Under the pieces are notes generated by a model. That model made no database searches and was not told where the DNA came from. It was given only the letters and a program-made list of their open reading frames with translations. From IMG/VR virus record IMGVR_UViG_3300008111_001118: a DNA stretch of 64,000 nucleotides. One strand, written 5' to 3'. This document shows positions 1-32,928 of the stretch, piece by piece. This DNA comes from a virus (taxonomy: Duplodnaviria; Heunggongvirae; Uroviricota; Caudoviricetes). The first letter of the stretch is position 1. Every line of letters starts with the position of its first letter. The position numbers and the translations under genes were made by a program.

Positions 1-356
1 ACACAGGAATCATCGACAGAATCGGAAGAGTAATATTTTTTCATTGCGATCACAACGGCAGAGCATTTGAGCATAGAGACTTGGACGCACGTAACGGTGT
101 GTTAGGCGATCATCAATATACTCCACACAACAATGAATTTATTCACATTCGTTATAGAACAAAGCGTGGATTCTATATTTGGGATCCGGATACAGAAAAC
201 AAATATTATATAAACGCTAATGCTGCATTTTGGAATGATCAAGACTGGCACGGCGGAGAAGAAAGCAAAGAAATTGAGTATGGAATGAGAATTGACTGTA
301 AGTTTAGCAATTCATTTCGCGAACAATTGGGTATTGATCATTTGGAGCACTATTGA
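1..356 (+). CDS. 2OG-Fe(II) oxygenase-like protein, 5'-truncated by window edge
   Basis: Frame is open from base 3 (TGIIDRIGRVIFFHCDHNG...). HxD (HCD), distal His (WHGG) and downstream Arg (GMRID). Confidence 0.6.
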   Translation, partial: TGIIDRIGRVIFFHCDHNGRAFEHRDLDARNGVLGDHQYTPHNNEFIHIRYRTKRGFYIWDPDTENKYYINANAAFWNDQDWHGGEESKEIEYGMRIDCKFSNSFREQLGIDHLEHY

Positions 357-847
357 TTTATCGAGGTAATTTTGCAAACTGGATCAATCCTACGTGGAGA
401 GAACTTGTCCTAAACACAGTAGGACAAGCAAGACCCAGAGATTGGCCTCCGGAAACTGCCGTTGAAAGTGCTGAATATTGCAAGGCTCGAGATGCAGGAT
501 ACGATTTAACAGCAACGCACTGGTGGGTATACGAAGAACACGATTTAAATATTAAAATAAGTCCGCCTTGGTGTACTGGAAAAACTGAATGGTGGATCAC
601 AAAGTTAATGCCTGGTCAATTTATGCCGATGCACACAGACCCATTTACACATTATGAAACTTGTAAACGATATTGGGTGCCATTACAAGACTATCAACCC
701 GGGCATTTGTTTGTATACGGAAATTTAGTATTAACAAAGTATTCTGCTGGCGACGTATATGAATACATTAACAGTCAAGATATTCATGGCGCCGCCAATA
801 TAGGACATATGCCAAGAGTAGTGTTGCAGGTCACTGAATATGAGTAA
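353..847 (+). CDS. 2OG-Fe(II) oxygenase-like protein
   Basis: PMHTD, DIHGAAN and PRVVLQ give the HxD...H...R jelly-roll signature. Confidence 0.7.
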   Translation: MIYRGNFANWINPTWRELVLNTVGQARPRDWPPETAVESAEYCKARDAGYDLTATHWWVYEEHDLNIKISPPWCTGKTEWWITKLMPGQFMPMHTDPFTHYETCKRYWVPLQDYQPGHLFVYGNLVLTKYSAGDVYEYINSQDIHGAANIGHMPRVVLQVTEYE

Positions 848-1988
848 AACATATTGTCCGTTGCCATGGGTACACTCGAGTTGGCAAAATGGAAATACTA
901 TACTTCCTTGTTGTGGATTTATGGACGGCGGAAGGTTCAATAAAACATCCGTATTTGAAAAATTGTATTTTGACAACGAAATGGATCAACTTCGGGCAGA
1001 TATGCTTGCTGGTAAAACTATCAAAGGTTGCGAACAATGCTATGATCAAGAAAACAACAATTTAGATAGTATGCGTACTAGAGCGTTAGACAAATACGGA
1101 ATTGTAACAACAATAGATTTACAAGATTTGCATATTATGTTTGATAATCTATGCAATTTAAAATGTAGAATGTGTGCAAGTTCAAACAGTCATTTATGGC
1201 ACGTAGAAGAAAAAGAGTTATACGGAGAGGCATTTTCTTCTAGCAAATATTTTCAAAATACATTTTATAAAGAAGTAAATTTAAAAAACATTAAAGAAAT
1301 TAATCTTACAGGCGGGGAACCACTTTATAGTCCTCATTTTATTCCTTTCTTAAAAAAATTAAAAGAAGATGCAGATACAAGCCAAATTTATATTGATTTT
1401 TTTACTAATGGAACAATACAGCCCACTGAAGAAATTCTTAGTATATTAAAAGAGTTTAAAAAAGTAACAATTACTATTAGCATAGATGCAATAGGAAAAT
1501 TAAACGACTTTATTAGAAAAAACAGTAATTTTGATGAAATAAAAAATAATTTAGATTTTTATTATAGATTATTGTCAGATAAAATTTCAGTAAATGTTTT
1601 GACTACAGTTGGAATTTACAATGCTATCTATGTCGAAGATATTAAAAACTATTTTAGTTTAAATTATCCAAAGTTTAATTGGGGTTACGATGTAATACAG
1701 TATCCAGAATATTTAAGTATAAGACACATGCCAACTAACTTAAAAGATATCTACAAAGAGTATATCAAGGAAGAACCGTTGATATCTTATATGTACGACA
1801 GTGGCAAAGATTTATTTAAACATTTTTTATATTCTCATTATAAACTTAATAAAATAAGAAATGAAGATTTTACTGAGAACAACATTTTGTTAAATTATAT
1901 TAAAAATAATAATACTGACATTTACGAAGAAGAAACCAAAAAGTATTACAAAAATATGATTAACGAAATTCGTGGATCAAGAGATTAA
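840..1988 (+). CDS. Radical SAM protein with N-terminal twitch/SPASM-like Cys domain
   Basis: CNLKCRMC, GGEP, TNGT, SIDA; N-terminal CPLPW..PCC..CEQC. Confidence 0.85.
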   Translation: MSKTYCPLPWVHSSWQNGNTILPCCGFMDGGRFNKTSVFEKLYFDNEMDQLRADMLAGKTIKGCEQCYDQENNNLDSMRTRALDKYGIVTTIDLQDLHIMFDNLCNLKCRMCASSNSHLWHVEEKELYGEAFSSSKYFQNTFYKEVNLKNIKEINLTGGEPLYSPHFIPFLKKLKEDADTSQIYIDFFTNGTIQPTEEILSILKEFKKVTITISIDAIGKLNDFIRKNSNFDEIKNNLDFYYRLLSDKISVNVLTTVGIYNAIYVEDIKNYFSLNYPKFNWGYDVIQYPEYLSIRHMPTNLKDIYKEYIKEEPLISYMYDSGKDLFKHFLYSHYKLNKIRNEDFTENNILLNYIKNNNTDIYEEETKKYYKNMINEIRGSRD

Positions 1989-2965
1989 TTTGTATATTTT
2001 TTTAAAACATATTCTGGTGTTTTTAAAAAACTAGTGTCTTTGTCAGAACACATGTCGCATTCTCCTATTTCGCAGTATTTTGTTTCATCAAAAAAATCAA
2101 TTTCGTCGTTGTTATAATTTTCTAAATTTATAGGTTTATAATTTAAATATTTTTGCCAATCTGGGTCGTTTAATAAATTATGATGATTTAAAAATCTATT
2201 TAATGTACCCAAAGAAGAACACTTGTATAATTTTTTATCAATCAAAAAACTACACATATCACTGGTGCAGCCGTTTTGATAAGATTCGGCAGGATTGTTT
2301 GTTTTAAAGGGTTTAGGAATATTATCAATTAATTGATAATTTTGTTTAAATGTGCTTTGCTCTCTGTAATGAACAAACGTTTTATTATAAAATACCTGTT
2401 CAGTATCTTCAATGTAATCATAAAAGTTTTGTCTTTTGTCTAACCACTCTTGATACAAGATATCGTTTTTTTTATTTTCTATATCGAATAGATTTTTATA
2501 AAAATCGGACACATTTCCACTGGGCAAATTCACAGCATCTGCTAAAAGTTTAAAATTTTGTTTAACTTTATTTGAAAGTGTTTTATCTTCAAATCCTGAA
2601 AAATGGTCACATACAAAAACACTAACATCAAACTGTTTTATTAACGCAACTAGTTCATTGAGTTTTTTATCAATAAGTGTTCCATTGGTTGGTAGTAAAA
2701 GTACAGCATCTGGATCTATGCTTTTTATAAATTTAAATATTTCTGTAATTCGATCTAAATACAGTAACGGTTCACCACCTGAAGTACCATAATAGATTAT
2801 ATCAAATTTTTCTTTGACTAATTTAATGCCTGTTAATATGTCATCCAATGTTGGATCATAGTTTTTTGTTTGCAACACATGGCTTCTTGCATCACAATGA
2901 TTGCAGGCTAAGTTACAATAAGCACCGCAGTAAATATCTAAAAATCTCAGGTATGGTTGACTCAT
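1985..2965 (-). CDS. Radical SAM protein
   Basis: CNLACNHC, GGEPLL, TNGTL, C-terminal CDMC. Start moved to ATG 2965 (MSQPY), 5 nt after a TAAATA box. Confidence 0.85.
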   Translation of the reverse strand: MSQPYLRFLDIYCGAYCNLACNHCDARSHVLQTKNYDPTLDDILTGIKLVKEKFDIIYYGTSGGEPLLYLDRITEIFKFIKSIDPDAVLLLPTNGTLIDKKLNELVALIKQFDVSVFVCDHFSGFEDKTLSNKVKQNFKLLADAVNLPSGNVSDFYKNLFDIENKKNDILYQEWLDKRQNFYDYIEDTEQVFYNKTFVHYREQSTFKQNYQLIDNIPKPFKTNNPAESYQNGCTSDMCSFLIDKKLYKCSSLGTLNRFLNHHNLLNDPDWQKYLNYKPINLENYNNDEIDFFDETKYCEIGECDMCSDKDTSFLKTPEYVLKKYTN

Positions 2966-2970
2966 TGTAA

Positions 2971-3020
2971 TATTTAGTAGTATCACAATTGAGTAACTAT
3001 GTTTTTGTTTGCAGTAAATA
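2971..3020. promoter_or_regulatory. Divergent late-promoter boxes (TAAATA at 2971-2976 on minus, 3015-3020 on plus)
   Basis: T4-like late consensus in the intergenic gap. The plus-strand gene also has an AGGAGA SD before ATG 3047. Confidence 0.5.
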
Positions 3021-3046
3021 TTAGAAATAATACCACAGGAGATAAA

Positions 3047-4117
3047 ATGAAAGTATCAAAAATTCCCGGTTTAGGTTCATATGGACATTATATTGACGAC
3101 TTAGACTTTGATAATATCACAGATGAAGAATGGGCAGAAATTGGAAAATTTCATTTAACTGATTTAGTAACTATTCTAAGAAACGTTAAAATTACTAAAG
3201 ATCAGTACTATAACAGAATTCGGCAATGGGGTCCTTTTATCGGTGCAACAATGTCTCGCAAGCACTTTCAAAAAAAATACGGTCAAGATTTTGATGGTAG
3301 AATTCAAGAACATTACAAAAAATTTAATGTATCATCAGAAGACGAACGTTATATTAAAATGAAACAGTTTTATATTGAACATACTGAACATGGTAATACA
3401 TTAACACGAGTTTGTGGCAAAAGAGATGAATACGGTAACCCAATGGGCAACTTTTCATCTGGCGAGTTATATTGGCACAGTAACGAATCGTCTGTAATTA
3501 ACTTTACTCCCGGAGTTGCATTGATGGGCGGAGAGTATATGGTAGGTAGTTCTACAGGATTTCTACAAACTGCTGATTATTATCAGTCAATCTCTGAAAG
3601 TTTTAGAAGCGAACTTAACGAAATGATTTTAGTTCACGCATACATTCCTGGAGGGATTAATGAACTCGAAAAAGATGATCCAAGTTTTGGAGAAAACATA
3701 AGAAAAGAATTTGCACCAGTTGACGGGGCTGAAGTACCCTTGGTAATTACAAGTCCGGGCGGAATCAAAGGACTGCATTATACACTTAATTCTGTTGTTG
3801 GAATTAAAGGTATGAGTAAATATGATAGCGATAAAGTTTTTGCAGAAATTGACCGAGAATTGTTAACTGAAAAATATATTTACGATCACATGTACTTACA
3901 AGACAATGAGATTTGTTTATTTGATAATTCGATAACATTACATAGAAGAAAGCATCCTGGAAATCCGAACAGACTTGCATTTAGATTGCAATATTATCCT
4001 GATAGTTTAATAAAACAATCGTGGCATCCATATCATCAACAGCATTTTTACAACTATCATCAAGATGAAATGCTAGAGTTGATGAATATCCTAGAGTTAG
4101 ATTTAAAATTTCCATAA
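3047..4117 (+). CDS. TauD/TfdA-family dioxygenase
   Basis: LYWHSNE, STGFLQT, LFDNSITLHRR, R-x3-R. ATG 3047 follows AGGAGA. Confidence 0.8.
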   Translation: MKVSKIPGLGSYGHYIDDLDFDNITDEEWAEIGKFHLTDLVTILRNVKITKDQYYNRIRQWGPFIGATMSRKHFQKKYGQDFDGRIQEHYKKFNVSSEDERYIKMKQFYIEHTEHGNTLTRVCGKRDEYGNPMGNFSSGELYWHSNESSVINFTPGVALMGGEYMVGSSTGFLQTADYYQSISESFRSELNEMILVHAYIPGGINELEKDDPSFGENIRKEFAPVDGAEVPLVITSPGGIKGLHYTLNSVVGIKGMSKYDSDKVFAEIDRELLTEKYIYDHMYLQDNEICLFDNSITLHRRKHPGNPNRLAFRLQYYPDSLIKQSWHPYHQQHFYNYHQDEMLELMNILELDLKFP

Positions 4118-4124
4118 TTTTAAA

Positions 4125-5267
4125 ATGTCTGATATAAAAACAAAGTTAATCAACATCGAATGGTTATTTGTTGATCAAGATCATTACGATTTGATAATGA
4201 TCGAAATTGATCAAGCAGTGCGAGAAAAATGCAACGTAATTATTTTTCTTGCACTGATGGACGGATTTGTGGCGTGGGATCCTAAATATTGGATCCCACT
4301 GATTGACAAACTCGACAATGCTTGTAAAAAATTAGGTATACAAGAGATAATTTTTATATCTGGTGCTGGAAAAACATATGAGTATGGTTTAAAACACACA
4401 CACTACTTTTATGACTGGAATATGAGTGTTGTAAAAAATGCATACAAAGATTATGATAATCAAATCAAAGATTATAATAACGATGCTGACAAGTTTTTAT
4501 TTTTAACAGGTCGTTCTGCTCGTCCAAATCGTATTGGACTAATGAGTAAATTTTACGACGAAAATATGTTAAAAAATAGCACTTGGTCATTTTTTCCTCC
4601 TTGGAACGAAATAGATAACAAATGGTGCCGAAACTATTTGTCAAAATATACAGATAAAGAATATAACGAGTTTTTAAAAAACTGTAATAGATCTTTAGAT
4701 AGCGATAACGAATACAACTCTTGTAAAAGTTTTTTAGGAGTTTACGAAGGCGACAACTGGCACGATATTGTAAAAGAACCCTACATACACAATCCGTCAT
4801 TTATAGATTTGCATCACTATAACGATGTAAAGTTAACAGTAATAAGTGAAGGGCCGATATACTGGGAATGGAGTAACGACCGGTATTATCTTACTGATAA
4901 AACTTATAGAGAATTATTAATGAAGAAGCCAGTAATTTTATCGGGCTATGTAGAACAATACAAAGAATTGAAAAATCTAGGATTTAAGACATTTGACGAG
5001 AATTTCTTAATCAAAGAGTACGGTTTAATCGAAGATGAAGAACAGCGTCTTGAAGCAATAGTACAAAATGTAAAATATTTTTTAAACAACAGCGATTATC
5101 AAAAAGTCAAACAAGACGTTGACTTTAATACAAAGTTATTGTATTATTATTTTAAAAAGCAAGATGAATTTTTAAAGTATTTAGAAACAAAGTACAATGC
5201 TAGTAAAGAAGAAATTGAGTTTTTCTTTAATCGTAAAGGTCTTGAGCACCTAATAAGAAAACCCTAA
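4125..5267 (+). CDS. Hypothetical protein, possibly glycosyltransferase-like
   Basis: 380 aa. RPNRIGL and TDKTYR..KKPVIL..LGFKTF resemble GT-B-like C-terminal segments common in large phages. Confidence 0.4.
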   Translation: MSDIKTKLINIEWLFVDQDHYDLIMIEIDQAVREKCNVIIFLALMDGFVAWDPKYWIPLIDKLDNACKKLGIQEIIFISGAGKTYEYGLKHTHYFYDWNMSVVKNAYKDYDNQIKDYNNDADKFLFLTGRSARPNRIGLMSKFYDENMLKNSTWSFFPPWNEIDNKWCRNYLSKYTDKEYNEFLKNCNRSLDSDNEYNSCKSFLGVYEGDNWHDIVKEPYIHNPSFIDLHHYNDVKLTVISEGPIYWEWSNDRYYLTDKTYRELLMKKPVILSGYVEQYKELKNLGFKTFDENFLIKEYGLIEDEEQRLEAIVQNVKYFLNNSDYQKVKQDVDFNTKLLYYYFKKQDEFLKYLETKYNASKEEIEFFFNRKGLEHLIRKP

Positions 5268-6364
5268 TGTTTTATCAAAAAATTACTCAACTCGAACTTG
5301 AACTTACAACAAGATGCAACGCATCTTGTCCTCAGTGTGTACGTAATTTTTACGGTGGAAAAACATGGCCAACATTGCCCATGGTCGACATTGACTTGGA
5401 ATTAATTAAAACAAAAATACCAGATTCAATTTTAAAAGACTTGATAGAAATTCGTATTTGCGGAACTTATGGTGATCCCTGTATCTATCAAGATTTGATA
5501 GAGTTAGTCAAATATTTAAATTCAAAAACTTCTGCACAACTTACTATTAATACAAACGGTAGTTTACGTACAACAAAATGGTGGAAAGATCTTGCTAACG
5601 TTTTAAAAAAAGATGATAGAGTTATTTTCGGAATAGATGGTTTAGATGACACAAACCATTTGTATAGAGTTAACACAAACTTTAAAAAAATAATCAATAA
5701 TGCAAAAGCATTTATATCTGCTGGCGGATCAGCAATATGGAGTTACATTGTTTTTAAACACAACGAACATCAAGTAGATGCTGCAAGACAATTAAGCAAC
5801 AAACTCGGATTTGATGGGTTTTCTTGTAAGTTGACAACTAGATTTATCGATAAACAACATAATCTAGTTGATAAAACTCCAGTGTTTGACAAAAATAATA
5901 ATCTTAATAGATATTTAGAAATGCCTGATGAAAAGAAATATCTAAACAATGGCTATAATAACTACGAAAAAATTATAAAAGAGTTCGGATCTTATGAAAA
6001 CTATTTGCAAAAATCTAAAATATTTTGTACTGCACAACACAGTAATTTAATTTATATTTCAGCCGAAGGGTACGTTTTGCCTTGCGGATGGCTTGCTGAT
6101 AGATTTTATGGGTTTGAAACCGAAAAGCACAAAGATAGAAAAAAATTATTTGAGTTGATTGACCTAAACGGCGGTCTAAACACTATTAGTTTGCATCATT
6201 TTTCATTGGACGAAATTGCAAACAGTAAAGTGTTTCACGCTATACAACAAAACTGGATTAGCGAAAATAGAATAGAGCGTTGTGCAAATCAATGTAGTAA
6301 ATACGGTATGCTTAAACAAAATGCTACAAAAGAATTACAACCTTATGTAAAAGGAAATGTATAA
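5267..6364 (+). CDS. Radical SAM protein with C-terminal twitch/SPASM-like domain
   Basis: CNASCPQC, GTYGDP, NTNGS, FGIDGL..TNHLYR, C-terminal C..PCG..CANQC. Confidence 0.85.
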   Translation: MFYQKITQLELELTTRCNASCPQCVRNFYGGKTWPTLPMVDIDLELIKTKIPDSILKDLIEIRICGTYGDPCIYQDLIELVKYLNSKTSAQLTINTNGSLRTTKWWKDLANVLKKDDRVIFGIDGLDDTNHLYRVNTNFKKIINNAKAFISAGGSAIWSYIVFKHNEHQVDAARQLSNKLGFDGFSCKLTTRFIDKQHNLVDKTPVFDKNNNLNRYLEMPDEKKYLNNGYNNYEKIIKEFGSYENYLQKSKIFCTAQHSNLIYISAEGYVLPCGWLADRFYGFETEKHKDRKKLFELIDLNGGLNTISLHHFSLDEIANSKVFHAIQQNWISENRIERCANQCSKYGMLKQNATKELQPYVKGNV

Positions 6365-7270
6365 ATGCACAATATTTTTAAAAATTCTTATGCTATACAA
6401 GATCCTGAAATAGTAGACTTTATAAAACACATTGATTTTTCAGAAGCATTATGGGATAATAGTGTTACTAAAAATTTTTGTAATGCTTACAAAAATTGGA
6501 TTTTAAGTTCTGCCGACAATAATTTTATAGGTTTAAATAACTTCACATATGCAATTTATAGCAACGGTGCGTCTCAAGCGTTTGATATGTTTTATATTAA
6601 AAATAAAAATAGACGTTTTAGATGTTTTAAGGGCGAATATGTTTATCACAAACTAGCCTGGAGAAATAATTGGAACGACTGGACATTTATAGAGGATTCA
6701 CCTTTAGAATTTAATGATGCAGTAGTAATTAGTTTACCGTTTAGTGACACCGGAAACAAGCATGTTGAGATGGACAGTGTTTTAGAGATATGCGATCGAT
6801 TACAGATTCCAGTGTTAATTGATTGTATATATTTTGGAATTTGTAATAATATAAATTTTGATTTATCTTTTAATTGTATTACTGATGTTGTTTTTAGTTT
6901 AAGTAAAACATTTCCTGTTGCAAATGCAAGAATTGGAATAAGATTTACAAAAACAGATGACGACGACCTTATGTTTGTATATGATAAGATGAATTACAAT
7001 AACAGACTTGGTTCTCACTTAGGATTAAATCTTTTACAAAACTTTTCACCAGATTTTGTATACAATAAATATAAAAGTAAACAACTCGAGTGTTGTAGTG
7101 TTTTAAATATTACGCCAAGTAATACAGTTTTATTTGGCGTAGACAACTTTAAAAAATACAATCAATATAACAGAGGCACTAATACCAATAGACTAAGTCT
7201 TCAAGACTTGCTAATTTTAAACAATTTACAAATGAAAGAGATATTATATGCCAATTCAAACAAACAATGA
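6365..7270 (+). CDS. Fold-type I PLP-dependent enzyme (aminotransferase-like, short)
   Basis: PVLIDCIY (PLP Asp), FSLSK (Schiff-base Lys), ARIG. Confidence 0.65.
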   Translation: MHNIFKNSYAIQDPEIVDFIKHIDFSEALWDNSVTKNFCNAYKNWILSSADNNFIGLNNFTYAIYSNGASQAFDMFYIKNKNRRFRCFKGEYVYHKLAWRNNWNDWTFIEDSPLEFNDAVVISLPFSDTGNKHVEMDSVLEICDRLQIPVLIDCIYFGICNNINFDLSFNCITDVVFSLSKTFPVANARIGIRFTKTDDDDLMFVYDKMNYNNRLGSHLGLNLLQNFSPDFVYNKYKSKQLECCSVLNITPSNTVLFGVDNFKKYNQYNRGTNTNRLSLQDLLILNNLQMKEILYANSNKQ

Positions 7271-8309
7271 TTGGGATCCTTTAGAAGAGATTGTAGTTGG
7301 TATAGCCGATCATGCAATGCTTCCAACTCTTGATAAAAGTACTCATAGTTTTTCTTATGCAGCAAACACATATGACGAAATTAAACATCTTAACGGAATT
7401 TTACACAATCAACAAGTCATTGACGAAGCAAATGAAGACTTAGATGGATTGTCAGATACTTTAAAAAGTTTAGGTGTTAATGTATTAAGACCTGATGTAA
7501 TTGATCATAGACAAAAATTTAGTACGCCCGATTGGGAAACTACAGGGTGGCATACTTATTGTCCCAGAGACTTGTTGTTACCTTTGGACAACATGATTAT
7601 CGAGTGTCCTAGTCCTATGCGGTCTCGATACTTTGAAACTCGTGCATATTACAATCATTTATATAAATGGATGAAGGAAGGTTCGCAATGGATCTGTGCT
7701 CCAAAGCCGATACTATTAGATGAAAGTTATCAACTAGATGATATAAAAGAAGCAACCTTACTAAATCACGAAATTGTATTTGATGCACCAAATATCGTTA
7801 GATTAGGAAGAGATTTACTTTGCCAAGTAAGCAACAGTGGAAATCAACTTGGGTTTGAATGGCTAAAAACTATTCTCGAACCAAAAGGATACAGATTTCA
7901 TATTGCAGAAAAGTATTATAGTTTTTCGCATTTTGACAGCACAGTAATTCCTCTTCGTCCTGGATTGGTTTTGTTCAACGGTGACAGATTAAATGAAGAC
8001 TGGTACCCGCCTATTTTTAAAAGTTGGGATAAGATTTTTTGGCCTGGCGAAAAAATTGGTAAAATACCTACAAATTTATCAAACGGTATCTCACCGTGCT
8101 CACCTTATATTGGACTAAACTTGTTAAGTGTAAATCCTGAACTCATTATTGTAGATGAAAATCAACAAGAACTGATGAAAGAATTAGACAAAACATGGGG
8201 AATTGAAAGTATTGGTTTGCCAATGAGACAAGCAAGAACATTAAGCGGTGGCTTTCATTGTGTTACATTAGATACAAAACGTAAAGGAACACTAGAGGAC
8301 TATTTTTAA
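7248..8309 (+). CDS. Amidinotransferase (AGAT/StrB1 family)
   Basis: DWDPLEEIVVG, YCPRD, FDAPN, HFDST, LSGGFHCVTLD; Asp-His-Cys triad intact. Confidence 0.9.
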   Translation: MPIQTNNDWDPLEEIVVGIADHAMLPTLDKSTHSFSYAANTYDEIKHLNGILHNQQVIDEANEDLDGLSDTLKSLGVNVLRPDVIDHRQKFSTPDWETTGWHTYCPRDLLLPLDNMIIECPSPMRSRYFETRAYYNHLYKWMKEGSQWICAPKPILLDESYQLDDIKEATLLNHEIVFDAPNIVRLGRDLLCQVSNSGNQLGFEWLKTILEPKGYRFHIAEKYYSFSHFDSTVIPLRPGLVLFNGDRLNEDWYPPIFKSWDKIFWPGEKIGKIPTNLSNGISPCSPYIGLNLLSVNPELIIVDENQQELMKELDKTWGIESIGLPMRQARTLSGGFHCVTLDTKRKGTLEDYF

Positions 8310-10156
8310 TGAAAAGTGTGTATTTGTTTCAAGTAAATTATCAAATGGGTTACGGAAACTTTTCTAGTCAAAGTTTACCATATAGTATTGCTGCGGTCTG
8401 GTCATATGCAGAACAGTTTGATATAGTAAAACAAAACTTTGATGTAAAGGATTGTTTTTTTAAACGTGAACCTGTTGATTTGGTTATCACTAAAATACAT
8501 GATCCAGAAATTTGTCTCTTTAGTAACTATATTTGGAACGAACAATACAATTTTCAATTGGCAAAAAAAATAAAAGATAAATGGCCAAACTGTTTAATTG
8601 TGTTTGGCGGCCCGCAGGTTGGCGAAAAAGCAGGACACAAACTTTTACAAAAAAAGTTTATAGATAGTATTATAATTAACGAAGGCGAAAAGTCTTTGTA
8701 TTCGTTATTAACTGACTACATTACTACTGGAATAGTTAAAGAAACATATCAATTGCATCAACGTGTTGATGTTGAAGAAATGCCAAGTCCTTATATAAAC
8801 AGCAACATTTTAAACAAGTTAGTCCAAGAAAATAAAAATGTAAAATTTTCAACAACCATAGAAACAAATAGAGGCTGTCCTTTTGCTTGTACATTCTGTG
8901 ACTGGGGTAGTCTAACTCAAAGTAAAATTAAAAAATTTAATTTAGAAAAAGTATTTGCTGAGTTAGATTGGGTTGCAAAAAATAAAATAGAATACATTTA
9001 TATTGCTGATGCTAACTTTGGTGTTTTTTATGAACGTGACAAACTTATTGTAGAATATCTAGCCAAGTTAAAAACAGAAACAGGCTATCCTCACGGAGTT
9101 ACTGCTACTTGGTATAAAAACAGTGCTGAAAAAACTATTGAATTAGTTAAAATACTGCACAGTGTAGGACTTAATAGAGGTCTTACATTAAGTGTTCAAA
9201 GTATGAATGACGATACGTTAACAAACATTAAACGTAAAAATATGGAAATATCTCAGTTATCACAGATGTACAAAGAATGTGACAAACAAGGTGTGACATA
9301 TTATACAGAGTTTATTTTGGGTATGCCATACGAAACTAAACAAAGTTGGAGAGAAGGTCTTTGCGAAGCCATACAAGCAGGATGTCATTATTTCTTAGAT
9401 GTGTTTCCCTTAGAAATACTTAAAAACAGTGAGATGGCCACTGAAGTACTTGATCACGAAATGGCAGTGGAAACATATTACACAGTGTTTAATGGTCAGT
9501 TGACTAACATTCCAGAAATTCACAACTACGTAATTGCAACAAAATACATGAACAAATCGGATTACATTGATTCTTGGTTGTGGTATTGGTTAATAATGAA
9601 CTTTCATAATTATAACTGGACGCAAGTATTGGCTAAATTTGCAAACAAACATCTTGGTATTGATTATATTGACTTTTATGAAAACTTTTTTAATAATTGT
9701 ATTTTAAAAGAAGATTTTTTTCTATCACTGTATAATAAACAAAAAACCGATTTAGAAGAATTCTTTTGGAATAAAAAAATTACAGACGTTTTTGTTAATG
9801 ACAATGTTACAGTTAATTACACTCAAATTGAATGGCATAAAAATAGAAACACGGTTCAAACTAAAATTGAACAGTGGGCTAAAAAATACTTTTCTACAGT
9901 TGACAACAATTTGTTAAACGACCTACTCAATTTTAATAAATCATACACAACAGACATTTCACGAAAACATGCTATAAGTGGTGAGTTTAATTATAATTTA
10001 AACGAGTTTTGTAATTTTAACGACAAGTTAATACAAAATAAAACAACATATAGATTTGATATATCTATACCTTGGGACACAGATATAGACTTTAAAGAAA
10101 AATTGTTCTATAAAAACAGAAGTGGTTTTAGTGTAGCAAAAATAACAAAGTTATGA
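8309..10156 (+). CDS. Cobalamin-binding radical SAM protein (class B methylase-like)
   Basis: N-terminal B12-binding Rossmann (LFSNYIWN, VFGGPQ, INEGE), ETNRGCPFACTFCDWG. Confidence 0.85.
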   Translation: MKSVYLFQVNYQMGYGNFSSQSLPYSIAAVWSYAEQFDIVKQNFDVKDCFFKREPVDLVITKIHDPEICLFSNYIWNEQYNFQLAKKIKDKWPNCLIVFGGPQVGEKAGHKLLQKKFIDSIIINEGEKSLYSLLTDYITTGIVKETYQLHQRVDVEEMPSPYINSNILNKLVQENKNVKFSTTIETNRGCPFACTFCDWGSLTQSKIKKFNLEKVFAELDWVAKNKIEYIYIADANFGVFYERDKLIVEYLAKLKTETGYPHGVTATWYKNSAEKTIELVKILHSVGLNRGLTLSVQSMNDDTLTNIKRKNMEISQLSQMYKECDKQGVTYYTEFILGMPYETKQSWREGLCEAIQAGCHYFLDVFPLEILKNSEMATEVLDHEMAVETYYTVFNGQLTNIPEIHNYVIATKYMNKSDYIDSWLWYWLIMNFHNYNWTQVLAKFANKHLGIDYIDFYENFFNNCILKEDFFLSLYNKQKTDLEEFFWNKKITDVFVNDNVTVNYTQIEWHKNRNTVQTKIEQWAKKYFSTVDNNLLNDLLNFNKSYTTDISRKHAISGEFNYNLNEFCNFNDKLIQNKTTYRFDISIPWDTDIDFKEKLFYKNRSGFSVAKITKL

Positions 10157-11596
10157 ATACAGCGGAATAAATTTTGTTATTCCGTTGACATTTACTTCCA
10201 ACCAACTGTCTGGGTTTGATGTATTAGCAGGAGATTTAGAAGTTTCTCCTACAACAGTAACATCTTTAATTACACTTTTTAAATGCCCATCTGAATTTAT
10301 AGACAATGCTTCGGTTAATTCGCCTGCATTGTTAGAAACTTTTATTGAAAAATGACCCGGTACCTTTCCTGACGAAACAATTGCATTGCTAGAAACAGAC
10401 GTTTCGATTAAAGCAACTGGTACACACGAAATACTATAATTAGTGCCACTTTGAGCACCAAATATAATACTTTGTATTCCGTCTCCGGGTTGTACAGGCT
10501 CTGGGTTAGAAATAGATCCTCTAGTTTTAATAAGAGCAAGAGTTCCTGGGAGATTACTGTCTTTTGACACACAAATAGTCAACGGGCCGTAATCGTCGTT
10601 GATGTCTTTGTCTGAAACAAATAATGCAGTACCGCTACTTCCAACATCTTTATCACCTACTTGAAAGTTATTAAATCTTTGAATATCCGATACAACGTTT
10701 CCGAAAAAATTTCCATAAAACGTATTAGTTTGATAATCGTAACTAATTCCGTTGGTTTCGGATAACAAGTTTGCTTTAATAATCTGTATATCAGTATCTA
10801 AAATAACTTCACCGAGATTGTTATAAACATTTCCTGCAAACGTTCCTACAAACTCGCCGACGATAGAATCAGTTACTACAATATCTTCAGCATTGATTTT
10901 TTTAACAACTAGTTCGTTTAACTCTGCAGAGTTAGTAAAAGAATCGTACATAAGATTCCCATTTGCATTATAAACATTGCCTTTGACATTTCCGTAGATG
11001 AGGTTATTTACTTCGAGATCATCTAACCGTAAACTGTTGCTATTTGAATCATAAACAGTATCGCCTGCGTGATCAACAATATTGCCTAAAAAATTACCAA
11101 TGAATATTTTGTTTTCCGAATCAAGTACCATGGTTCCGTTTTCGTCAGCAACATTTCCAAAAAATATTCTTTGATTTTTATCAACAATTATATTTCCAAA
11201 TTCGTCAACTACGTTTCCAACAACATTACCATGGAATAATTTTTCATTCTTGTCGACAACCAAATTTCCAATATCATCAACAATATTTCCAAGAACATTA
11301 CCGTAGAATATTTGTTGTGAGTTGTCGATGACTATATTTCCTGAGTCGTCAAGAACATTACCGGTAACATTACCGTAGAATGTTTTTTCTGAAATATTAA
11401 GAACTACATTTCCTAAGTCGTCGATTACATTTCCAACAAAATTTCCGTGGAAAGTTTTGTTTTCGTAGTCAACTATGATGTAATCGTCAACATCGACTAT
11501 GTTGGCTTTGATAATACCTCTAAAGCTATCTACTATAAGAGTACTGTCCATACCTTCAATATTAATTCTATATGACGCACCATCGTAAAGTTCCAT
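10151..11596 (-). CDS. Putative virion fibre/structural protein with internal repeats
   Basis: Gly/Asn/Val/Asp-rich with 24-aa repeats. YRINI.G.DST motif is shared with 40877..42505. AGGAG SD and upstream TAAATA. Confidence 0.65.
   Translation of the reverse strand: MELYDGASYRINIEGMDSTLIVDSFRGIIKANIVDVDDYIIVDYENKTFHGNFVGNVIDDLGNVVLNISEKTFYGNVTGNVLDDSGNIVIDNSQQIFYGNVLGNIVDDIGNLVVDKNEKLFHGNVVGNVVDEFGNIIVDKNQRIFFGNVADENGTMVLDSENKIFIGNFLGNIVDHAGDTVYDSNSNSLRLDDLEVNNLIYGNVKGNVYNANGNLMYDSFTNSAELNELVVKKINAEDIVVTDSIVGEFVGTFAGNVYNNLGEVILDTDIQIIKANLLSETNGISYDYQTNTFYGNFFGNVVSDIQRFNNFQVGDKDVGSSGTALFVSDKDINDDYGPLTICVSKDSNLPGTLALIKTRGSISNPEPVQPGDGIQSIIFGAQSGTNYSISCVPVALIETSVSSNAIVSSGKVPGHFSIKVSNNAGELTEALSINSDGHLKSVIKDVTVVGETSKSPANTSNPDSWLEVNVNGITKFIPLYS
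11039..11458 (-). repeat. Six tandem coding repeats of 24 aa / 72 bp (one is 20 aa)
   Basis: KTFHGNFVGNVIDDLGNVVLNISE, KTFYGNVTGNVLDDSGNIVIDNSQ, QIFYGNVLGNIVDDIGNLVVDKNE, KLFHGNVVGNVVDEFGNIIVDKNQ, RIFFGNVADENGTMVLDSEN, KIFIGNFLGNIVDHAGDTVYDSNS. Confidence 0.85.
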
Positions 11597-11615
11597 GTTT
11601 CTCTCCTAGACACTT

Positions 11616-11621
11616 TATTTA
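11616..11621 (-). promoter_or_regulatory. Late promoter box TAAATA for the fibre gene
   Basis: TAAATA-aagtgtct-AGGAG-agaaac-ATG on the minus strand. Confidence 0.55.
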
Positions 11622-11629
11622 TTTGATAT

Positions 11630-11658
11630 TTGACATCAATAGTTTTTTATGTTACTAT
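11630..11658 (+). promoter_or_regulatory. Sigma70-type promoter
   Basis: TTGACA (11630-35), 17 nt, TACTAT (11653-58); ATG 7 nt downstream at 11666. Confidence 0.7.
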
Positions 11659-11665
11659 ATACAAT

Positions 11666-13309
11666 ATGTTTGATATATTCTATGTACAGTCTTCTGATAA
11701 TCTTTCGAATTGGAAAAAACTAAAATCTAGATTTCCTATAGCCAAGCGTGTAACAAGTTTTGCAGATGCTAAAGAATTAGCATTAACAAAATTTTTTTGG
11801 ATAGTGTGGGATGACTTAGTTATTTCGGAACAATTTAATTTTGACTACATTCCAGATCAGTGGAGCGAAAATTATGTCCATGTATTTAAAAATGCCGAAC
11901 ATCGTGATGGAATAATTCTAGTCTCAAAGAATGTTAGTATTACCAACAACGAAATTAAACATAGATTTTTTATCAAGAAAAAAGAAATAGATTTACAAGC
12001 GTCTAGTCCTAAAAACTTTGACTATTATGAAGTTGAAACATACAGTGATTACTTAACTGCATTAGAAAAATCCACTACAGAACTGTTTTGGGTCAGTTCT
12101 CCTAACATACTAGTAGACAACAACTTAATCCACAATTTTTATATATCGCATCACGAACAAATCGATCGCAAACAAAATCATGCGTTTGTACATTTAGTTG
12201 ATGATGTAAAATACTATAATGGGTTATTTTTGTGCAGCAAATATGCCCCACTTACGCAAAAAGAAGTTGACTATAGACATGTAGTTAATAGAAAAGAATG
12301 GGATATTGTAGGAAGTGGTCCTATAAAGTACGATATTTTTAATGTTAAAAATTATGATGATTATCTAACAGCATTAAATACTTCGCATACTGAAATGTTT
12401 TGGATCGTACCAGACTATGTAAATCCAACAGAAAGATTCAAGTACGATACGTATTTTACACACGATCAAGAATTCGAACGCAAGATAAATCATACATTTT
12501 TAAACGGAAAATATCATGACGGTATTTTACTGTGCAGTAAATATGCAAAATTTAGCAAACGAGAGTTTGATTATAAGTTTATTGCAAATAAAAAAGAAAT
12601 CAACATTATTATATCAACACCTAAGCCTTATGATATTGTGTTTATCAGTTATCAAGAACCTAGTGCTGATGAATACTACCGGTATCTAGCGAATAGATTT
12701 CCACATGCAAAACGAGTTCACGGTGTAAAAGGAATTCATCAAGCACATATCGAGGCAGCAAAACTATGCGATACTGATATGTTTTGGATTGTGGACGGAG
12801 ATGCTTTGATTGACTCGAATTTTAAATTCGACTATCAAGTTGCAAGATGGGACCGCGACACAGTGCATGTATGGAGGTCGGTTAACCCTATCAATGACCT
12901 AGTATACGGATACGGTGGTGTAAAACTGTTTCCAACAGAATTGACTTTAAATATGGATACAAGCAAGCCCGACATGACAACCAGTATTAGCAGTAAGTTT
13001 AAAGCAGTACAGGAAATATCAAATGTTACCGGTTTTAATACAGATTCATTTAATACTTGGAAAAGTGCATTTAGAGAATGTGTTAAACTAAGTAGTAGAG
13101 TTATTGATCGTCAAAAGGACGACGAAACACAGACTAGATTACAGACGTGGTGTACAAAAGGTGCAGATCGTCCATTTGGCAAATATGCAATTGATGGTGC
13201 TAAGTTGGGTGCAGTATTTGGTGCAAGAAATAAAGGCAATCTCGAAATGTTAAAAAATATCAACGATTTTGATTGGTTAAAGGAACAGTTTGATGCTAGA
13301 AATATATGA
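11666..13309 (+). CDS. Glycosyltransferase-like (GT-A) protein with four tandem modules
   Basis: The last module has DIVFISY, GIHQAH, FWIVDGD (DxD) and YGYGGVKL. Three degenerate copies precede it. Confidence 0.65.
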   Translation: MFDIFYVQSSDNLSNWKKLKSRFPIAKRVTSFADAKELALTKFFWIVWDDLVISEQFNFDYIPDQWSENYVHVFKNAEHRDGIILVSKNVSITNNEIKHRFFIKKKEIDLQASSPKNFDYYEVETYSDYLTALEKSTTELFWVSSPNILVDNNLIHNFYISHHEQIDRKQNHAFVHLVDDVKYYNGLFLCSKYAPLTQKEVDYRHVVNRKEWDIVGSGPIKYDIFNVKNYDDYLTALNTSHTEMFWIVPDYVNPTERFKYDTYFTHDQEFERKINHTFLNGKYHDGILLCSKYAKFSKREFDYKFIANKKEINIIISTPKPYDIVFISYQEPSADEYYRYLANRFPHAKRVHGVKGIHQAHIEAAKLCDTDMFWIVDGDALIDSNFKFDYQVARWDRDTVHVWRSVNPINDLVYGYGGVKLFPTELTLNMDTSKPDMTTSISSKFKAVQEISNVTGFNTDSFNTWKSAFRECVKLSSRVIDRQKDDETQTRLQTWCTKGADRPFGKYAIDGAKLGAVFGARNKGNLEMLKNINDFDWLKEQFDARNI

Positions 13310-14210
13310 ATTACTAGATAGATTTGAATTACTGTATCCATATAATACAAAACTATCTGACTTACGTAGATCTTATATCGATCGTGATTTAACCAGTATT
13401 TTTAGATTATTGCCTAATACAGTATCTGGTGATATCGACGATTTACGAAAAGCAGTGTTAGAAAAAAATCTACACAGTATCTTTAGACTTGTTGATGACG
13501 AAGATTTACGTAAATTAGTTATCGAAGACAATGTATGGAAACTATGGCCTATTCTTGAAAGATATGTTGATACACAGTTTGTTGCTGCATTTAAAAACTT
13601 TTTTGTTAACAATATAAAAATTGACCCCGATTGTTTTAGTAGAGGACAACTTCAAAGTAAATTATGGTTAGTTGAACAACTAAAAAAGTGTGACGTAGAT
13701 TTAGGCACAGTATTTTTATGTGCAGGTTGGTATGGAACACTAGCAGTGATGCTATTTGAAAGCGGTATAAAAGTTGAAAAAATTCGTAGTTTTGACATAG
13801 ATACTACAACTGTTGATATAGCAGAAACATTTAACAAGCCGTGGTTCACAGATCAATGGTGTTATAAAGCCTTAATAAATAATATTCACGATATTGATTA
13901 CAAAGAGCATACATGGCAATATTGGAGTAACACTAATAATAGAATGAGTTATCCTATAACTGATACGCCAAATACTATCATTAATACTAGTTGTGAACAT
14001 ATAGAAAATTATGCAGAATGGTATAATAAAATACCTCTAGGAAAACTAGTTGTGTTACAAGGAAATAATTATTTTGAAATCTTAGAACACGTTAATTGTT
14101 CAAGTAATCTCCAAGAATTTAGTAATAAATCTCCTATGACAAAAACACTCTACGAAGGCGAATTAGAATTGCCTAAATATAAAAGGTTTATGAAAATTGG
14201 ATTTAGATAA
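13293..14210 (+). CDS. Class I SAM-dependent methyltransferase-like protein
   Basis: FLCAGWYG, IRSFDID, INTSCEH; N-terminal DLR..SIFRL repeats. Confidence 0.6.
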   Translation: MLEIYELLDRFELLYPYNTKLSDLRRSYIDRDLTSIFRLLPNTVSGDIDDLRKAVLEKNLHSIFRLVDDEDLRKLVIEDNVWKLWPILERYVDTQFVAAFKNFFVNNIKIDPDCFSRGQLQSKLWLVEQLKKCDVDLGTVFLCAGWYGTLAVMLFESGIKVEKIRSFDIDTTTVDIAETFNKPWFTDQWCYKALINNIHDIDYKEHTWQYWSNTNNRMSYPITDTPNTIINTSCEHIENYAEWYNKIPLGKLVVLQGNNYFEILEHVNCSSNLQEFSNKSPMTKTLYEGELELPKYKRFMKIGFR

Positions 14211-15493: not shown

Positions 15494-15503
15494 GAGATGA
15501 TTG

Positions 15504-28821: not shown

Positions 28822-28826
28822 GAAAA

Positions 28827-28855
28827 TATTTATATGCGTAGTTAACTACTAAATA
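28827..28855. promoter_or_regulatory. Back-to-back late promoter boxes
   Basis: Minus-strand TATAAATA (28827-34) and plus-strand TAAATA (28850-55), each 5 nt from an ATG. Confidence 0.6.
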
Positions 28856-32895: not shown

Positions 32896-32928
32896 AGTAT
32901 AACTCCAATATAAAATATTTATTCTATT

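What the first reader, a model, noticed from the sequence alone, without database searches (positions are those of the whole stretch)
3047..10156. Guanidino-building sub-cluster: TauD, rSAM, PLP enzyme, amidinotransferase, B12-rSAM
Seen: a contiguous, translationally coupled plus-strand run with an intact amidinotransferase (Asp/His/Cys). Known: amidinotransferases move the amidino group of Arg to amines (AGAT, StrB1 in streptidine, SxtG, CyrA). They often follow a PLP aminotransferase, TauD-type VioC hydroxylates Arg, and class B rSAMs methylate unactivated carbons. Inference: the phage could make a guanidinylated, C-methylated moiety such as an amidino-sugar or modified amino acid. The GT-like genes at 4125 and 11666 could attach it to a polymer.
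Basis: partly seen in the sequence, partly recalled or inferred. Interest (0 to 1): 0.75.

Follow-up and report, generated by a model that had tools for sequence, protein, structure and literature searches.

The report
Phage guanidino-group-building enzyme module
An uncultured freshwater giant phage carries a tightly packed operon whose core is a vitamin-B6 aminotransferase and an arginine-dependent amidinotransferase. The same pair, with an oxygenase, radical enzymes and a sugar-transferase-like protein, recurs in hundreds of uncultured phages, so it probably builds a guanidino-bearing sugar-like unit whose identity and target are still unknown.

Summary
3047-10156 is a six-gene plus-strand run with junctions of 7, -1, 0, -23 and -1 nt:
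- TauD-family protein
- GT-B-fold protein
- radical SAM/SPASM enzyme
- compact fold-type-I PLP enzyme
- intact StrB1-like amidinotransferase (E 1.6e-86 to PDB 1bwd)
- TokK-like cobalamin radical SAM methylase (E 1e-66)

Across 169 related loci (40 lineages after dereplication), some partners travel with the amidinotransferase:
- The PLP gene lies directly upstream, usually overlapping, in 35 of 38 lineages.
- A small Fe/2OG oxygenase (window 353-847) is nearby in 34 of 40.
- A radical SAM gene is nearby in 18 of 19 loci with long flanks.
- The GT-B protein is nearby in 13 of 19.

The TauD gene and the 5267 radical SAM gene never co-occur with it. The B12 enzyme does so once.

Three independent contexts of related amidinotransferases are sugar-handling: a GDP-sugar cluster in a bacterium, a glycosyltransferase-rich cluster in cyanophage S-SCSM2R, and Campylobacter phage CP220. 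My best reading, at about 0.45, is carbonyl formation, then transamination, then amidination of a sugar-like acceptor, then transfer. The product and target are unknown.

Clusters of radical SAM genes with an amidinotransferase were noted in Campylobacter phages in 2010. This is a new variant of a known, uncharacterised kind.

The parts
3..356 (+). 3' part of a gene of unknown function, cut by the window edge. Its 270-aa homologues precede the module in relatives L119, L123, L077 and L071.
   Evidence: BLASTP 64-80% identity to ORFs at the head of the module in those loci. No Pfam family for the full-length homologue.
353..847 (+). Small Fe(II)/2-oxoglutarate-oxygenase-like double-stranded beta-helix protein (family 'fam1'). 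It is the conserved oxygenase partner of the amidinotransferase.
   Evidence: fam1 HMM E 2e-19. Invariant H94, D96, H145 and R106. The profile matches the distal-His region of the TauD-family enzyme AtsK at E 3.6e-4. Within 6 kb of the amidinotransferase in 34 of 40 lineages.
840..1988 (+). Radical SAM enzyme of the N-terminal-domain plus twitch type (NF033640). It is the best window match to the radical SAM gene that accompanies the module in relatives.
   Evidence: NCBIfam NF033640, E 1.3e-73, above cut-off. fam3 HMM E 2.5e-71. CNLKCRMC motif.
1985..2986 (-). Radical SAM enzyme on the opposite strand. It is related to the radical SAM gene ('fam15') that directly follows the amidinotransferase in a marine lineage and sits in cyanophage S-SCSM2R.
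   Evidence: Pfam Radical_SAM E 3.4e-12. fam15 HMM E 1.1e-29. CNLACNHC motif.
3047..4117 (+). TauD/TfdA-family protein of a rare subfamily in which the iron-binding Asp is Asn (W-H-S-N). It is an addition specific to this window, not conserved with the amidinotransferase.
   Evidence: Pfam TauD E 1.4e-14. PHROG 24590 E 1.2e-83. H-x-N in 21 of 26 relatives, with invariant T170, H299 and R309. 40% identical genes in Prochlorococcus phages P-HM1 and P-HM2. No homologue near the amidinotransferase in 169 loci.
4125..5267 (+). GT-B-fold protein ('fam4'), a probable transferase for a nucleotide- or phospho-activated sugar.
   Evidence: No Pfam or PDB sequence hit. AlphaFold2 model pLDDT 77. In the VIA-align search the top rows, Z 9-12, are almost all GT-B glycosyltransferases, including T4 alpha- and beta-glucosyltransferases. 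31-36% identical genes follow the amidinotransferase in L119, L123, L077, L168 and L070.
5267..6364 (+). Radical SAM enzyme with a C-terminal Cys-rich SPASM/twitch-like region. Its only relative among the fetched loci is in the Campylobacter phage CP220 cluster.
   Evidence: Pfam Radical_SAM E 1.6e-11 and SPASM E 0.0017. CNASCPQC motif plus C254, C273, C339 and C343. 27% identity to CP220 gp083.
6365..7270 (+). Compact (301 aa) fold-type-I PLP enzyme of the class I/II aminotransferase type ('fam2'). It is the obligate upstream partner of the amidinotransferase.
   Evidence: AlphaFold2 pLDDT 95. Foldseek E 1e-11 to aspartate and histidinol-phosphate aminotransferases and to CobD. Invariant S123, P125, D153, S180, K181 and R189, matching the PLP motifs. 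Directly upstream in 35 of 38 lineages.
7248..8309 (+). L-arginine-dependent amidinotransferase of the StrB1/AGAT family with its catalytic residues intact.
   Evidence: PDB 1bwd E 1.6e-86, SxtG 3.9e-61, HsvA 3.1e-60, AGAT 1e-56. Invariant D108, H228, D230 and C338; D179 nearly invariant. 2400 relatives in the protein collection and 317 IMG/VR contigs.
8309..10156 (+). Cobalamin-dependent (class B) radical SAM C-methyltransferase of the TokK/CysS/KedN5 type.
   Evidence: PDB TokK E 1e-66 over residues 23-469, CysS 2.1e-37. NCBIfam KedN5 E 1.1e-60 but below its cut-off. CPFACTFC motif. A 48% identical gene lies four genes after the amidinotransferase in L119.
10151..11596 (-). Convergent gene that ends the operon. 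It is possibly a trimeric tail-fibre-like protein; this is a boundary marker, and its membership in the module is not shown.
   Evidence: Atlas leads only: Mtd_N, PTL_trimer and Peptidase_S74 clusters at score 0.88-0.95. Weak 26% homologues lie on the minus strand after the module in L123.

Best explanation
The run 3047-10156, together with the three genes upstream (353-2986), is this phage's enlarged copy of a widespread, mainly viral biosynthetic module.

The constant core of the module is a small Fe/2OG oxygenase, a compact PLP aminotransferase and a StrB1-type amidinotransferase. One or more radical SAM enzymes and a GT-B transferase usually accompany it.

Proposed mechanism:
1. An oxygenase and/or a radical SAM enzyme creates a carbonyl on a sugar-like acceptor, such as a nucleotide sugar, sugar phosphate or cyclitol (inferred).
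2. The PLP enzyme turns the carbonyl into a primary amine. The fold and the PLP residues are shown; the reaction is inferred.
3. The amidinotransferase moves the amidino group of L-arginine onto that amine, giving a guanidino group and releasing ornithine. The family and catalytic residues are shown; the acceptor is inferred.
4. In this phage, the TokK-like B12 enzyme adds one or more C-methyl groups, and the TauD-like and extra radical SAM enzymes add further tailoring (inferred).
5. The GT-B protein transfers the finished unit onto a macromolecule. This could be a virion protein, a host envelope glycan or DNA (unknown).
For: Gene identities.

Conserved synteny after dereplication to 40 lineages:
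- The PLP gene is directly upstream on the same strand in 35 of 38 lineages, mostly with a 14-23 nt overlap, as in the window.
- The oxygenase is nearby in 34 of 40.
- A radical SAM gene lies within 6 kb in 18 of 19 loci with at least 5 kb on both sides.
- The GT-B gene is nearby in 13 of 19.

The four-gene set of oxygenase, amidinotransferase, PLP enzyme and GT-B also stands alone among housekeeping genes in Bdellovibrionota genomes.

Sugar contexts of related amidinotransferases:
- A gammaproteobacterial homologue (57% identical) sits among GDP-mannose 4,6-dehydratase, an SDR, a DegT sugar aminotransferase and two carbamoyltransferases.
- The cyanophage S-SCSM2R homologue sits among four glycosyltransferases and a DegT-like gene.
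- The CP220 homologue is followed by two nucleotide-diphospho-sugar transferase-like genes.
- In close relatives of this phage the module lies between a GT4 glycosyltransferase with an SDR epimerase and a UDP-glucose-dehydrogenase-like gene.

The best PDB match, StrB1, acts on a phosphorylated aminocyclitol (entry title; substrate from established knowledge of streptomycin biosynthesis).
Against: No substrate was tested.
- The PLP enzyme is of the class I/II (amino-acid) type, not the DegT type that nearly all known sugar aminotransferases belong to.
- I recognised no nucleotidyltransferase or kinase in the operon.
- The GT-B assignment rests on fold only, with Z about 11-12 and a model pLDDT of 77.
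- The TauD-like protein lacks the canonical Asp ligand.
- Many neighbouring oxygenases in relatives belong to families that include protein or lipid hydroxylases, namely Asp_Arg_Hydrox and P4H-like.
- Contexts differ between lineages, so the acceptor may differ too.
Confidence: 0.45

Rival explanations
1. The module makes a free small molecule, such as an aminocyclitol- or aminoglycoside-like compound or another guanidino metabolite. The molecule would be released or act inside the infected cell as an antibiotic, signal or osmolyte, and would not be attached to a polymer.
For: The closest solved relative is StrB1 of streptomycin biosynthesis. TokK, CysS and KedN5 relatives are natural-product enzymes. 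Carbamoyltransferases accompany the amidinotransferase in several loci, as in bluensomycin-type chemistry (the bluensomycin parallel is from my own knowledge). The authors of the S-SCSM2R paper read their homologues as antibiotic genes (PMC12801897).
Against: A GT-B transferase accompanies the module in most well-flanked lineages. No cyclitol synthase, inositol dehydrogenase or export gene was recognised. A lytic giant phage has only a short window in which to benefit from a secreted product.
Confidence: 0.15
2. The module contributes to hypermodification of the phage DNA. It would make either a guanidino or amino sugar placed on a base, or a guanidino group on an aminomethyl-7-deazaguanine.
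For: In the closest relatives of this phage (flanking genes 80-94% identical), the radical SAM, oxygenase, PLP and amidinotransferase genes sit inside the 7-deazaguanine gene block. They lie between the GT4 and epimerase genes and the phosphoribosyltransferase and GTP cyclohydrolase I genes. Two other large records with the module also encode GTP cyclohydrolase I elsewhere. T4 DNA glucosyltransferases tie with the best fold matches of the 4125 protein. Campylobacter phages with the amidinotransferase cluster are reported to have deazaguanine DNA (from my own knowledge, not checked here).
Against: Only 5 of 40 dereplicated lineages show this adjacency. In the window itself the two gene sets are about 43 kb apart. 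The bacterial four-gene unit has no DNA-modification neighbours. GTP cyclohydrolase I is common in large phages.
Confidence: 0.12
3. The module modifies an amino acid, a peptide or a virion protein. Examples are lysine to homoarginine, or hydroxylated and methylated residues, in the manner of radical-SAM-rich peptide maturation systems.
For: The PLP enzyme is of the amino-acid aminotransferase class. Amidinotransferases can use lysine or glycine (established for AGAT and AmtA; my own knowledge). SPASM/twitch radical SAM enzymes and B12 methylases are typical of peptide maturation (weak hits). Neighbours in relatives include Asp/Asn-hydroxylase-like and prolyl-hydroxylase-like oxygenases and giant gp10-like baseplate proteins. 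A fibre-like gene ends the operon.
Against: No precursor peptide was seen. PLP aminotransferases do not act on proteins. The GDP-sugar, DegT and glycosyltransferase contexts of related amidinotransferases point to sugars. All matches to peptide-maturase families fall far below their cut-offs.
Confidence: 0.12
4. The amidinotransferase is a plain auxiliary metabolic gene that redirects host arginine, for example to guanidinoacetate, as 'glycine amidinotransferase' annotations imply. On this view the neighbouring genes are unrelated.
For: Database and paper annotations call such viral genes glycine amidinotransferase.
Against: The score to StrB1 (294 bits) is far above that to AGAT (195 bits). 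The overlapping, conserved PLP partner and the recurring oxygenase, radical SAM and GT-B set argue for a dedicated pathway.
Confidence: 0.05

Closest known systems
StrB1, L-arginine:inosamine-phosphate amidinotransferase of Streptomyces griseus (PDB 1bwd)
   Same: Full-length homology (E 1.6e-86, residues 4-352 against 5-346), almost the same length, and conserved Asp, His and Cys catalytic residues.
   Different: StrB1 works in an actinomycete aminoglycoside pathway with a DegT-type aminotransferase and an NAD-dependent dehydrogenase. Here the partner is a compact class I/II-type PLP enzyme, and oxygenases and radical SAM enzymes stand in for the dehydrogenase. The acceptor is unknown.
Radical-SAM-rich variable cluster with a putative amidinotransferase in Campylobacter phages CP220 and CPt10 (Timms et al. 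2010, PMC2853527)
   Same: A phage-borne block of about five radical SAM genes around an amidinotransferase, followed by sugar-transferase-like genes, described as an interchangeable module acquired en bloc. Several window radical SAM genes (5267, 14414, 15501, 16529) have their only relatives among the fetched loci there.
   Different: The amidinotransferase is only 27-29% identical. No homologue of the PLP enzyme, the small oxygenase or the GT-B protein was found in the CP220 stretch I fetched (about 17 kb around its amidinotransferase), even at E 0.05. CP220 has no B12 radical SAM there. Its function is also unknown.
Glycosyltransferase-rich cluster of cyanophage S-SCSM2R with 'inosamine amidinotransferase' (PMC12801897)
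   Same: The small oxygenase (fam1) lies directly upstream of the amidinotransferase, a fam15 radical SAM gene is present, and there are an aminotransferase-family gene and glycosyltransferases.
   Different: The amidinotransferase is 36.5% identical. The aminotransferase is a DegT/AHBA-synthase-like fragment, not fam2. The authors' reading as antibiotic synthesis is untested.
TokK/ThnK and CysS cobalamin-dependent radical SAM methyltransferases
   Same: 8309-10156 aligns with TokK over both the cobalamin and radical SAM domains (E 1e-66) and with CysS (E 2.1e-37).
   Different: Those enzymes methylate carbapenem or cystobactamid intermediates in bacteria. Here the enzyme is phage-encoded, and such genes are essentially absent from cultured phage genomes.

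Membership tests
Amidinotransferase (AGAT/StrB1 family) | Full-length sequence homology to characterised members | tested here: met
   E 1.6e-86 to StrB1; E 1e-56 to 1e-61 to SxtG, HsvA and AGAT, each covering the whole protein.
Amidinotransferase (AGAT/StrB1 family) | Catalytic Cys-His-Asp, plus the two Asp residues that hold the guanidino group | tested here: met
   C338 (FHC), H228, D230 and D108 are invariant and D179 nearly invariant in 13 relatives. They align with the StrB1 motifs YCPRD, FDA, HVD and FHC.
Amidinotransferase (AGAT/StrB1 family) | Arginine-dependent amidino transfer with release of ornithine | not testable with these tools
   Needs an enzyme assay.
Fold-type I PLP aminotransferase (class I/II) | Fold | tested here: met
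   The model (pLDDT 95) matches aspartate, tyrosine and histidinol-phosphate aminotransferases and CobD at Foldseek E 1e-11 to 1e-9.
Fold-type I PLP aminotransferase (class I/II) | Schiff-base Lys in an S-x-S-K motif, Asp to the pyridine N, and a phosphate-binding Arg | tested here: met
   K181, S180, D153 and R189 are invariant in 36 sequences and align with those motifs of 3if2 and 2gb3.
Fold-type I PLP aminotransferase (class I/II) | Pfam PF00155 at its gathering score | tested here: not met
   No Pfam hit for the window protein. Only 2 of the 120 listed relatives carry a precomputed PF00155 hit. This is a divergent, shortened subfamily.
TauD/TfdA Fe(II)/2OG dioxygenase | Pfam PF02668 above its cut-off | tested here: met
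   55.1 bits against a cut-off of 27.
TauD/TfdA Fe(II)/2OG dioxygenase | H-x-D...H iron-binding triad | tested here: not met
   The sequence is W-H-S-N: Asn replaces Asp in the window protein and in 21 of 26 relatives. The distal His299 and the 2OG-binding T170 and R309 are invariant.
Class B (cobalamin-dependent) radical SAM methyltransferase | CX3CX2C cluster motif, plus an N-terminal cobalamin domain homologous to solved members | tested here: met
   CPFACTFC at residue 190. The TokK alignment covers residues 23-469. Pfam B12-binding is only E 0.0055.
KedN5 subfamily (NCBIfam NF033712) | Score above the curated cut-off | tested here: not met
   205.6 bits against a cut-off of 700. The protein is related to this subfamily but is not a member.
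GT-B glycosyltransferase | Two-Rossmann-domain GT-B fold | tested here: met
   In the VIA-align wide search the top rows, Z 9-12, are almost all GT-B glycosyltransferases spanning residues 1-360. Foldseek is weak, with a best E of 2e-3.
GT-B glycosyltransferase | Sequence membership of a CAZy or Pfam GT family, and donor-binding residues | tested here: inconclusive
   No Pfam or PDB sequence match. Invariant R136, K259, R308 and an EK motif could bind a diphosphate, but they were not mapped.
Radical SAM, N-terminal-domain/twitch subfamily (NF033640), gene 840-1988 | Score above the cut-off and the CX3CX2C motif | tested here: met
   248.4 bits against a cut-off of 170. CNLKCRMC motif.

The most novel reading that the evidence does not exclude
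The module makes a guanidino-bearing, positively charged sugar or side chain that the phage attaches to its own DNA, together with the neighbouring 7-deazaguanine, glycosyltransferase and epimerase genes. In this phage's closest relatives the module is embedded in that gene block. This would be a DNA hypermodification of a chemical class not yet described.
Probability: 0.1. Interest if true: 0.9.

Novelty: new variant of a known kind. Interest (0 to 1): 0.6.

Why it matters
Amidinotransferase genes in viral metagenomes are routinely labelled 'glycine amidinotransferase' or 'creatine biosynthesis'. This analysis shows that they belong to a conserved oxygenase, PLP enzyme and amidinotransferase unit, usually with radical SAM and GT-B genes. 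That unit is present in at least 317 IMG/VR contigs and several hundred metagenome contigs, and it is almost absent from cultured phages and from bacterial genomes.

That gives a defined, small gene set to express and assay. A guanidino-bearing glycan, virion decoration or DNA adduct made by phages has not been demonstrated and would be new chemistry in phage-host interactions. The window phage is an extreme case: the module is fused to a TokK-like B12 methylase and sits in an island of 17 radical SAM genes. This makes it a good source of enzymes.

Tried and rejected
I therefore could not fetch the contigs of the closest amidinotransferase relatives (80-88% identical) or test whether they keep the TauD and B12 genes.
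- Megablast of the window against cultured phages found nothing.
- Single-protein scans of IMG/VR found nothing for the amidinotransferase or the B12 enzyme. The TauD scan found two contigs without an amidinotransferase.
- A polyamine link (HsvA-like activity on products of the adjacent polyamine operon, 32-39 kb) is rejected as a synteny argument. No gene from 32242-40164 has a homologue within 10 kb of the amidinotransferase in any of 169 loci.
- A deazaguanine link as a general rule is not supported. It holds in only 5 of 40 lineages.
The only Atlas lead with a Pfam family is a GT2 cluster at a chance-level score. The neighbours 13290-14210 and 23571-24464 also show no similarity to the GT-B family.
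- PDB profile searches of the GT-B family gave nothing.
- The promoter and terminator scan was at chance level.
- The T4-type late promoter motif TATAAATA does not occur anywhere in 1-15900.
- The twitch radical SAM enzyme showed no specific similarity to a solved sugar dehydrogenase. Its only PDB sequence match below E 0.01 is SkfB, at E 1e-4.

Full report
**Setting.** The window comes from an uncultured freshwater giant T4-like phage. The amidinotransferase's own protein cluster is seen on contigs of up to 297 kb. Phage hallmark genes lie at 44-50 kb, and earlier notes of this scan describe the same genome. Bases 1-32,300 are a 30% G+C island, against 37-44% for 40-64 kb. The island holds 17 radical SAM genes, all with an intact CX3CX2C motif. 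The finding is the left part of that island.

**Observation.** Six plus-strand genes run from 3047 to 10156 with stop-to-start distances of 7, -1, 0, -23 and -1 nt.
- The first gene starts at 3047, not at the upstream ATG at 2999. An AGGAG lies 6 nt before it, and every homologue starts at that methionine.
- The run is bounded by a divergent radical SAM gene (1985-2986) and a convergent gene (10151-11596).
- A consensus promoter and terminator scan was no better than chance.
- The T4 late-promoter motif TATAAATA is depleted in the window (2 found against 11.4 expected) and absent from 1-15,900.

**Gene identities.**
- 3047-4117 is a TauD/TfdA-family protein (Pfam 55 bits; PHROG 24590). It belongs to a rare subfamily: 218 representatives among 1.8 billion proteins. 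In this subfamily the iron-binding Asp of H-x-D is Asn in 21 of 26 members, including this one. The distal His and the 2-oxoglutarate-binding Thr and Arg are invariant. Its only PDB sequence matches are weak ones to phenoxypropionate dioxygenases.
- 4125-5267 has no sequence-family match. Its AlphaFold2 model (pLDDT 77) aligns with GT-B glycosyltransferases, which fill nearly all of the 50 best rows of an all-against-all structural search at Z 9-12. Rows within one Z unit are tied, so no subfamily can be named.
- 5267-6364 is a radical SAM enzyme with a Cys-rich C-terminal SPASM/twitch-like part.
- 6365-7270 gets no Pfam hit, but it folds with pLDDT 95 into the class I/II aminotransferase fold. 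Its family keeps the S-x-S-K lysine, the Asp for the pyridine nitrogen and the phosphate-binding Arg invariant. It is unusually short, at about 300 residues.
- 7248-8309 is a full-length relative of StrB1 (E 1.6e-86), SxtG, HsvA and AGAT, with all catalytic residues. Pfam misses it.
- 8309-10156 aligns with the cobalamin radical SAM methylases TokK (E 1e-66) and CysS. It scores below the cut-off of the KedN5 subfamily.

**Relatives.** The amidinotransferase has 2400 relatives in the large protein collection, many 60-88% identical. It also has more than 500 metagenome contigs and 317 IMG/VR viral contigs.
- Only seven loci turned up among 185,579 species genomes.
- Among cultured phages it occurs, distantly, in cyanophage S-SCSM2R, Campylobacter phages of the CP220 group and two Enterococcus phage records.
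- I fetched 169 loci, called ORFs, clustered them into families, built HMMs and searched both ways.
- Because many loci are near-duplicates, I collapsed them to 40 lineages at 95% amidinotransferase identity.

**What travels with the amidinotransferase.**
- The PLP gene lies directly upstream on the same strand in 35 of 38 eligible lineages, mostly overlapping by 14-23 nt, as in the window.
- A small protein family (fam1) lies within 6 kb in 34 of 40 lineages.
  - It has invariant H-x-D, a distal His and an Arg, and its profile matches the distal-His region of the TauD-family enzyme AtsK.
  - The window copy is at 353-847.
- A radical SAM gene lies within 6 kb in 18 of the 19 lineages with at least 5 kb on both sides. 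It is either of the N-terminal-domain/twitch type, like 840-1988, or of the type of 1985-2986.
- The GT-B family is nearby in 13 of those 19.
- The freshwater relatives L119, L123, L077, L071 and L168 share the window's wider layout. This runs: homologue of the gene at 3-356, radical SAM, oxygenase, PLP enzyme, amidinotransferase, oxygenase, GT-B. L119 also has a 48% identical B12 radical SAM gene four genes after the amidinotransferase.
- No homologue of the TauD gene lies near the amidinotransferase in any locus. The 5267 radical SAM gene has a homologue only in the distant CP220 cluster, at 27% identity.
- The TauD gene has 45% identical copies in two viral contigs and 40% identical copies in Prochlorococcus phages P-HM1 and P-HM2, all without an amidinotransferase.
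- The functional unit is therefore roughly 353-10156.

**Clues to the substrate.**
- Two Bdellovibrionota genomes carry just the oxygenase, amidinotransferase, PLP and GT-B genes among housekeeping genes such as uvrC. These four can therefore act as a self-contained unit.
- A gammaproteobacterial genome has a 57% identical amidinotransferase among GDP-mannose 4,6-dehydratase, an SDR, a DegT sugar aminotransferase, two carbamoyltransferases, a methyltransferase and a radical SAM/SPASM gene.
- In S-SCSM2R the oxygenase-amidinotransferase pair lies among four glycosyltransferases and a DegT-like gene.
- In CP220 the amidinotransferase sits among five radical SAM genes and is followed by two nucleotide-diphospho-sugar-transferase-like genes and a PAP2 phosphatase. 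Timms et al. (2010) already described this as an interchangeable module of unknown function.
- Carbamoyltransferases recur in marine lineages.
- These independent contexts point to a sugar or sugar-like acceptor. The amine is made by an aminotransferase and then amidinated, as in streptidine formation by StrB1 (established knowledge).
- Against this, the PLP enzyme here is of the amino-acid class, not DegT-type.

**Link to the deazaguanine genes.**
- In the closest relatives of this phage, such as L016 and L097, the flanking genes are 80-94% identical. There the radical SAM, oxygenase, PLP and amidinotransferase block lies inside the gene block found at 47-60 kb in the window.
- That places it between a GT4 glycosyltransferase with an SDR epimerase and a UDP-glucose-dehydrogenase-like gene, a phosphoribosyltransferase and GTP cyclohydrolase I.
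- Only 5 of 40 lineages show this arrangement, and in the window the two sets are 43 kb apart.
- Two other large records with the module encode GTP cyclohydrolase I elsewhere in the genome. Three fragmentary records were uninformative.
- I therefore keep a DNA-modification role as a low-probability but exciting alternative.
- No gene of the adjacent polyamine operon is ever near the amidinotransferase in relatives.

**Other neighbours.**
- In several marine lineages the module abuts a giant (1750-2717 aa) protein. The one copy I scanned (L025, 2717 aa) has a T4 gp9/gp10-like N-terminus.
- In the window the operon ends against a gene with tail-fibre-like leads only.
- Relatives carry extra oxygenases of the Asp/Asn-hydroxylase and prolyl-hydroxylase types.
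- This keeps virion-protein decoration or modification in play as the target.

**Conclusion.**
- The specific roles given to TauD (arginine hydroxylation) and to the 11666 gene are not supported.
- The TauD, 5267 radical SAM and B12 genes look like additions specific to this phage, although L119 shares the B12 gene.
- I did not find the oxygenase, PLP enzyme and amidinotransferase triad described in the papers I searched. Those papers treat the viral gene as glycine amidinotransferase or as an 'antibiotic' gene.
- The product and its target can only be settled at the bench.

Noticed in passing
window 28079-28845 (-): A second, diverged copy of the PLP gene (about 30% identical to 6365-7270) appears split over two reading frames. 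28183-28845 covers profile positions 8-197 and 28079-28243 covers positions 228-257. It may be a frameshifted pseudogene or a sequencing error. One of only two TATAAATA motifs in the window lies just upstream, at 28827-28834.
   Followed up: partly
window 49939-50988 (-): The phage encodes a complete S-adenosylmethionine synthetase; all three MetK Pfam domains match at E 1e-32 to 1e-49. This would fit the SAM demand of 17 radical SAM enzymes. In relative L115 its homologue lies two genes after the amidinotransferase.
   Followed up: partly
window 3047-4117 (+) and relatives P0242-P0379: This TauD subfamily replaces the iron-binding Asp of H-x-D with Asn in 21 of 26 representatives (Asp in 4, His in 1), while the other cofactor residues stay invariant. 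Whether these proteins still bind iron is unknown. Members occur in Prochlorococcus phages P-HM1, P-HM2 and MED4-213.
   Followed up: partly
window 1-64000: The T4-type late promoter motif TATAAATA is strongly depleted: 2 occurrences against 11.4 +/- 3.6 expected.
   Followed up: no
window 840-32239: At least eight of the 17 radical SAM genes (840, 17551, 19658, 22520, 25865, 26980, 28861, 31193) are paralogues of the same N-terminal-domain/twitch family that accompanies the amidinotransferase in other phages (HMM E 1e-40 to 1e-71). Four others (5267, 14414, 15501, 16529) resemble genes of the Campylobacter phage CP220 cluster.
   Followed up: partly
L025:4590-12742 and similar ORFs in L030, L068, L118, L136, L147, L156 and L159: Giant ORFs of 1750-2717 aa lie directly beside the amidinotransferase module in several marine viral lineages. 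In the one copy I scanned (L025), Pfam finds a T4 gp9/gp10-like N-terminus (weak: E 3.6e-5, just below the cut-off) and an E1_FCCH-like domain.
   Followed up: partly
window 61275-62033 (-): A short (252 aa) UDP-glucose/GDP-mannose dehydrogenase-like protein. Its homologues lie right next to the amidinotransferase in relatives L016, L097, L119 and L168.
   Followed up: partly
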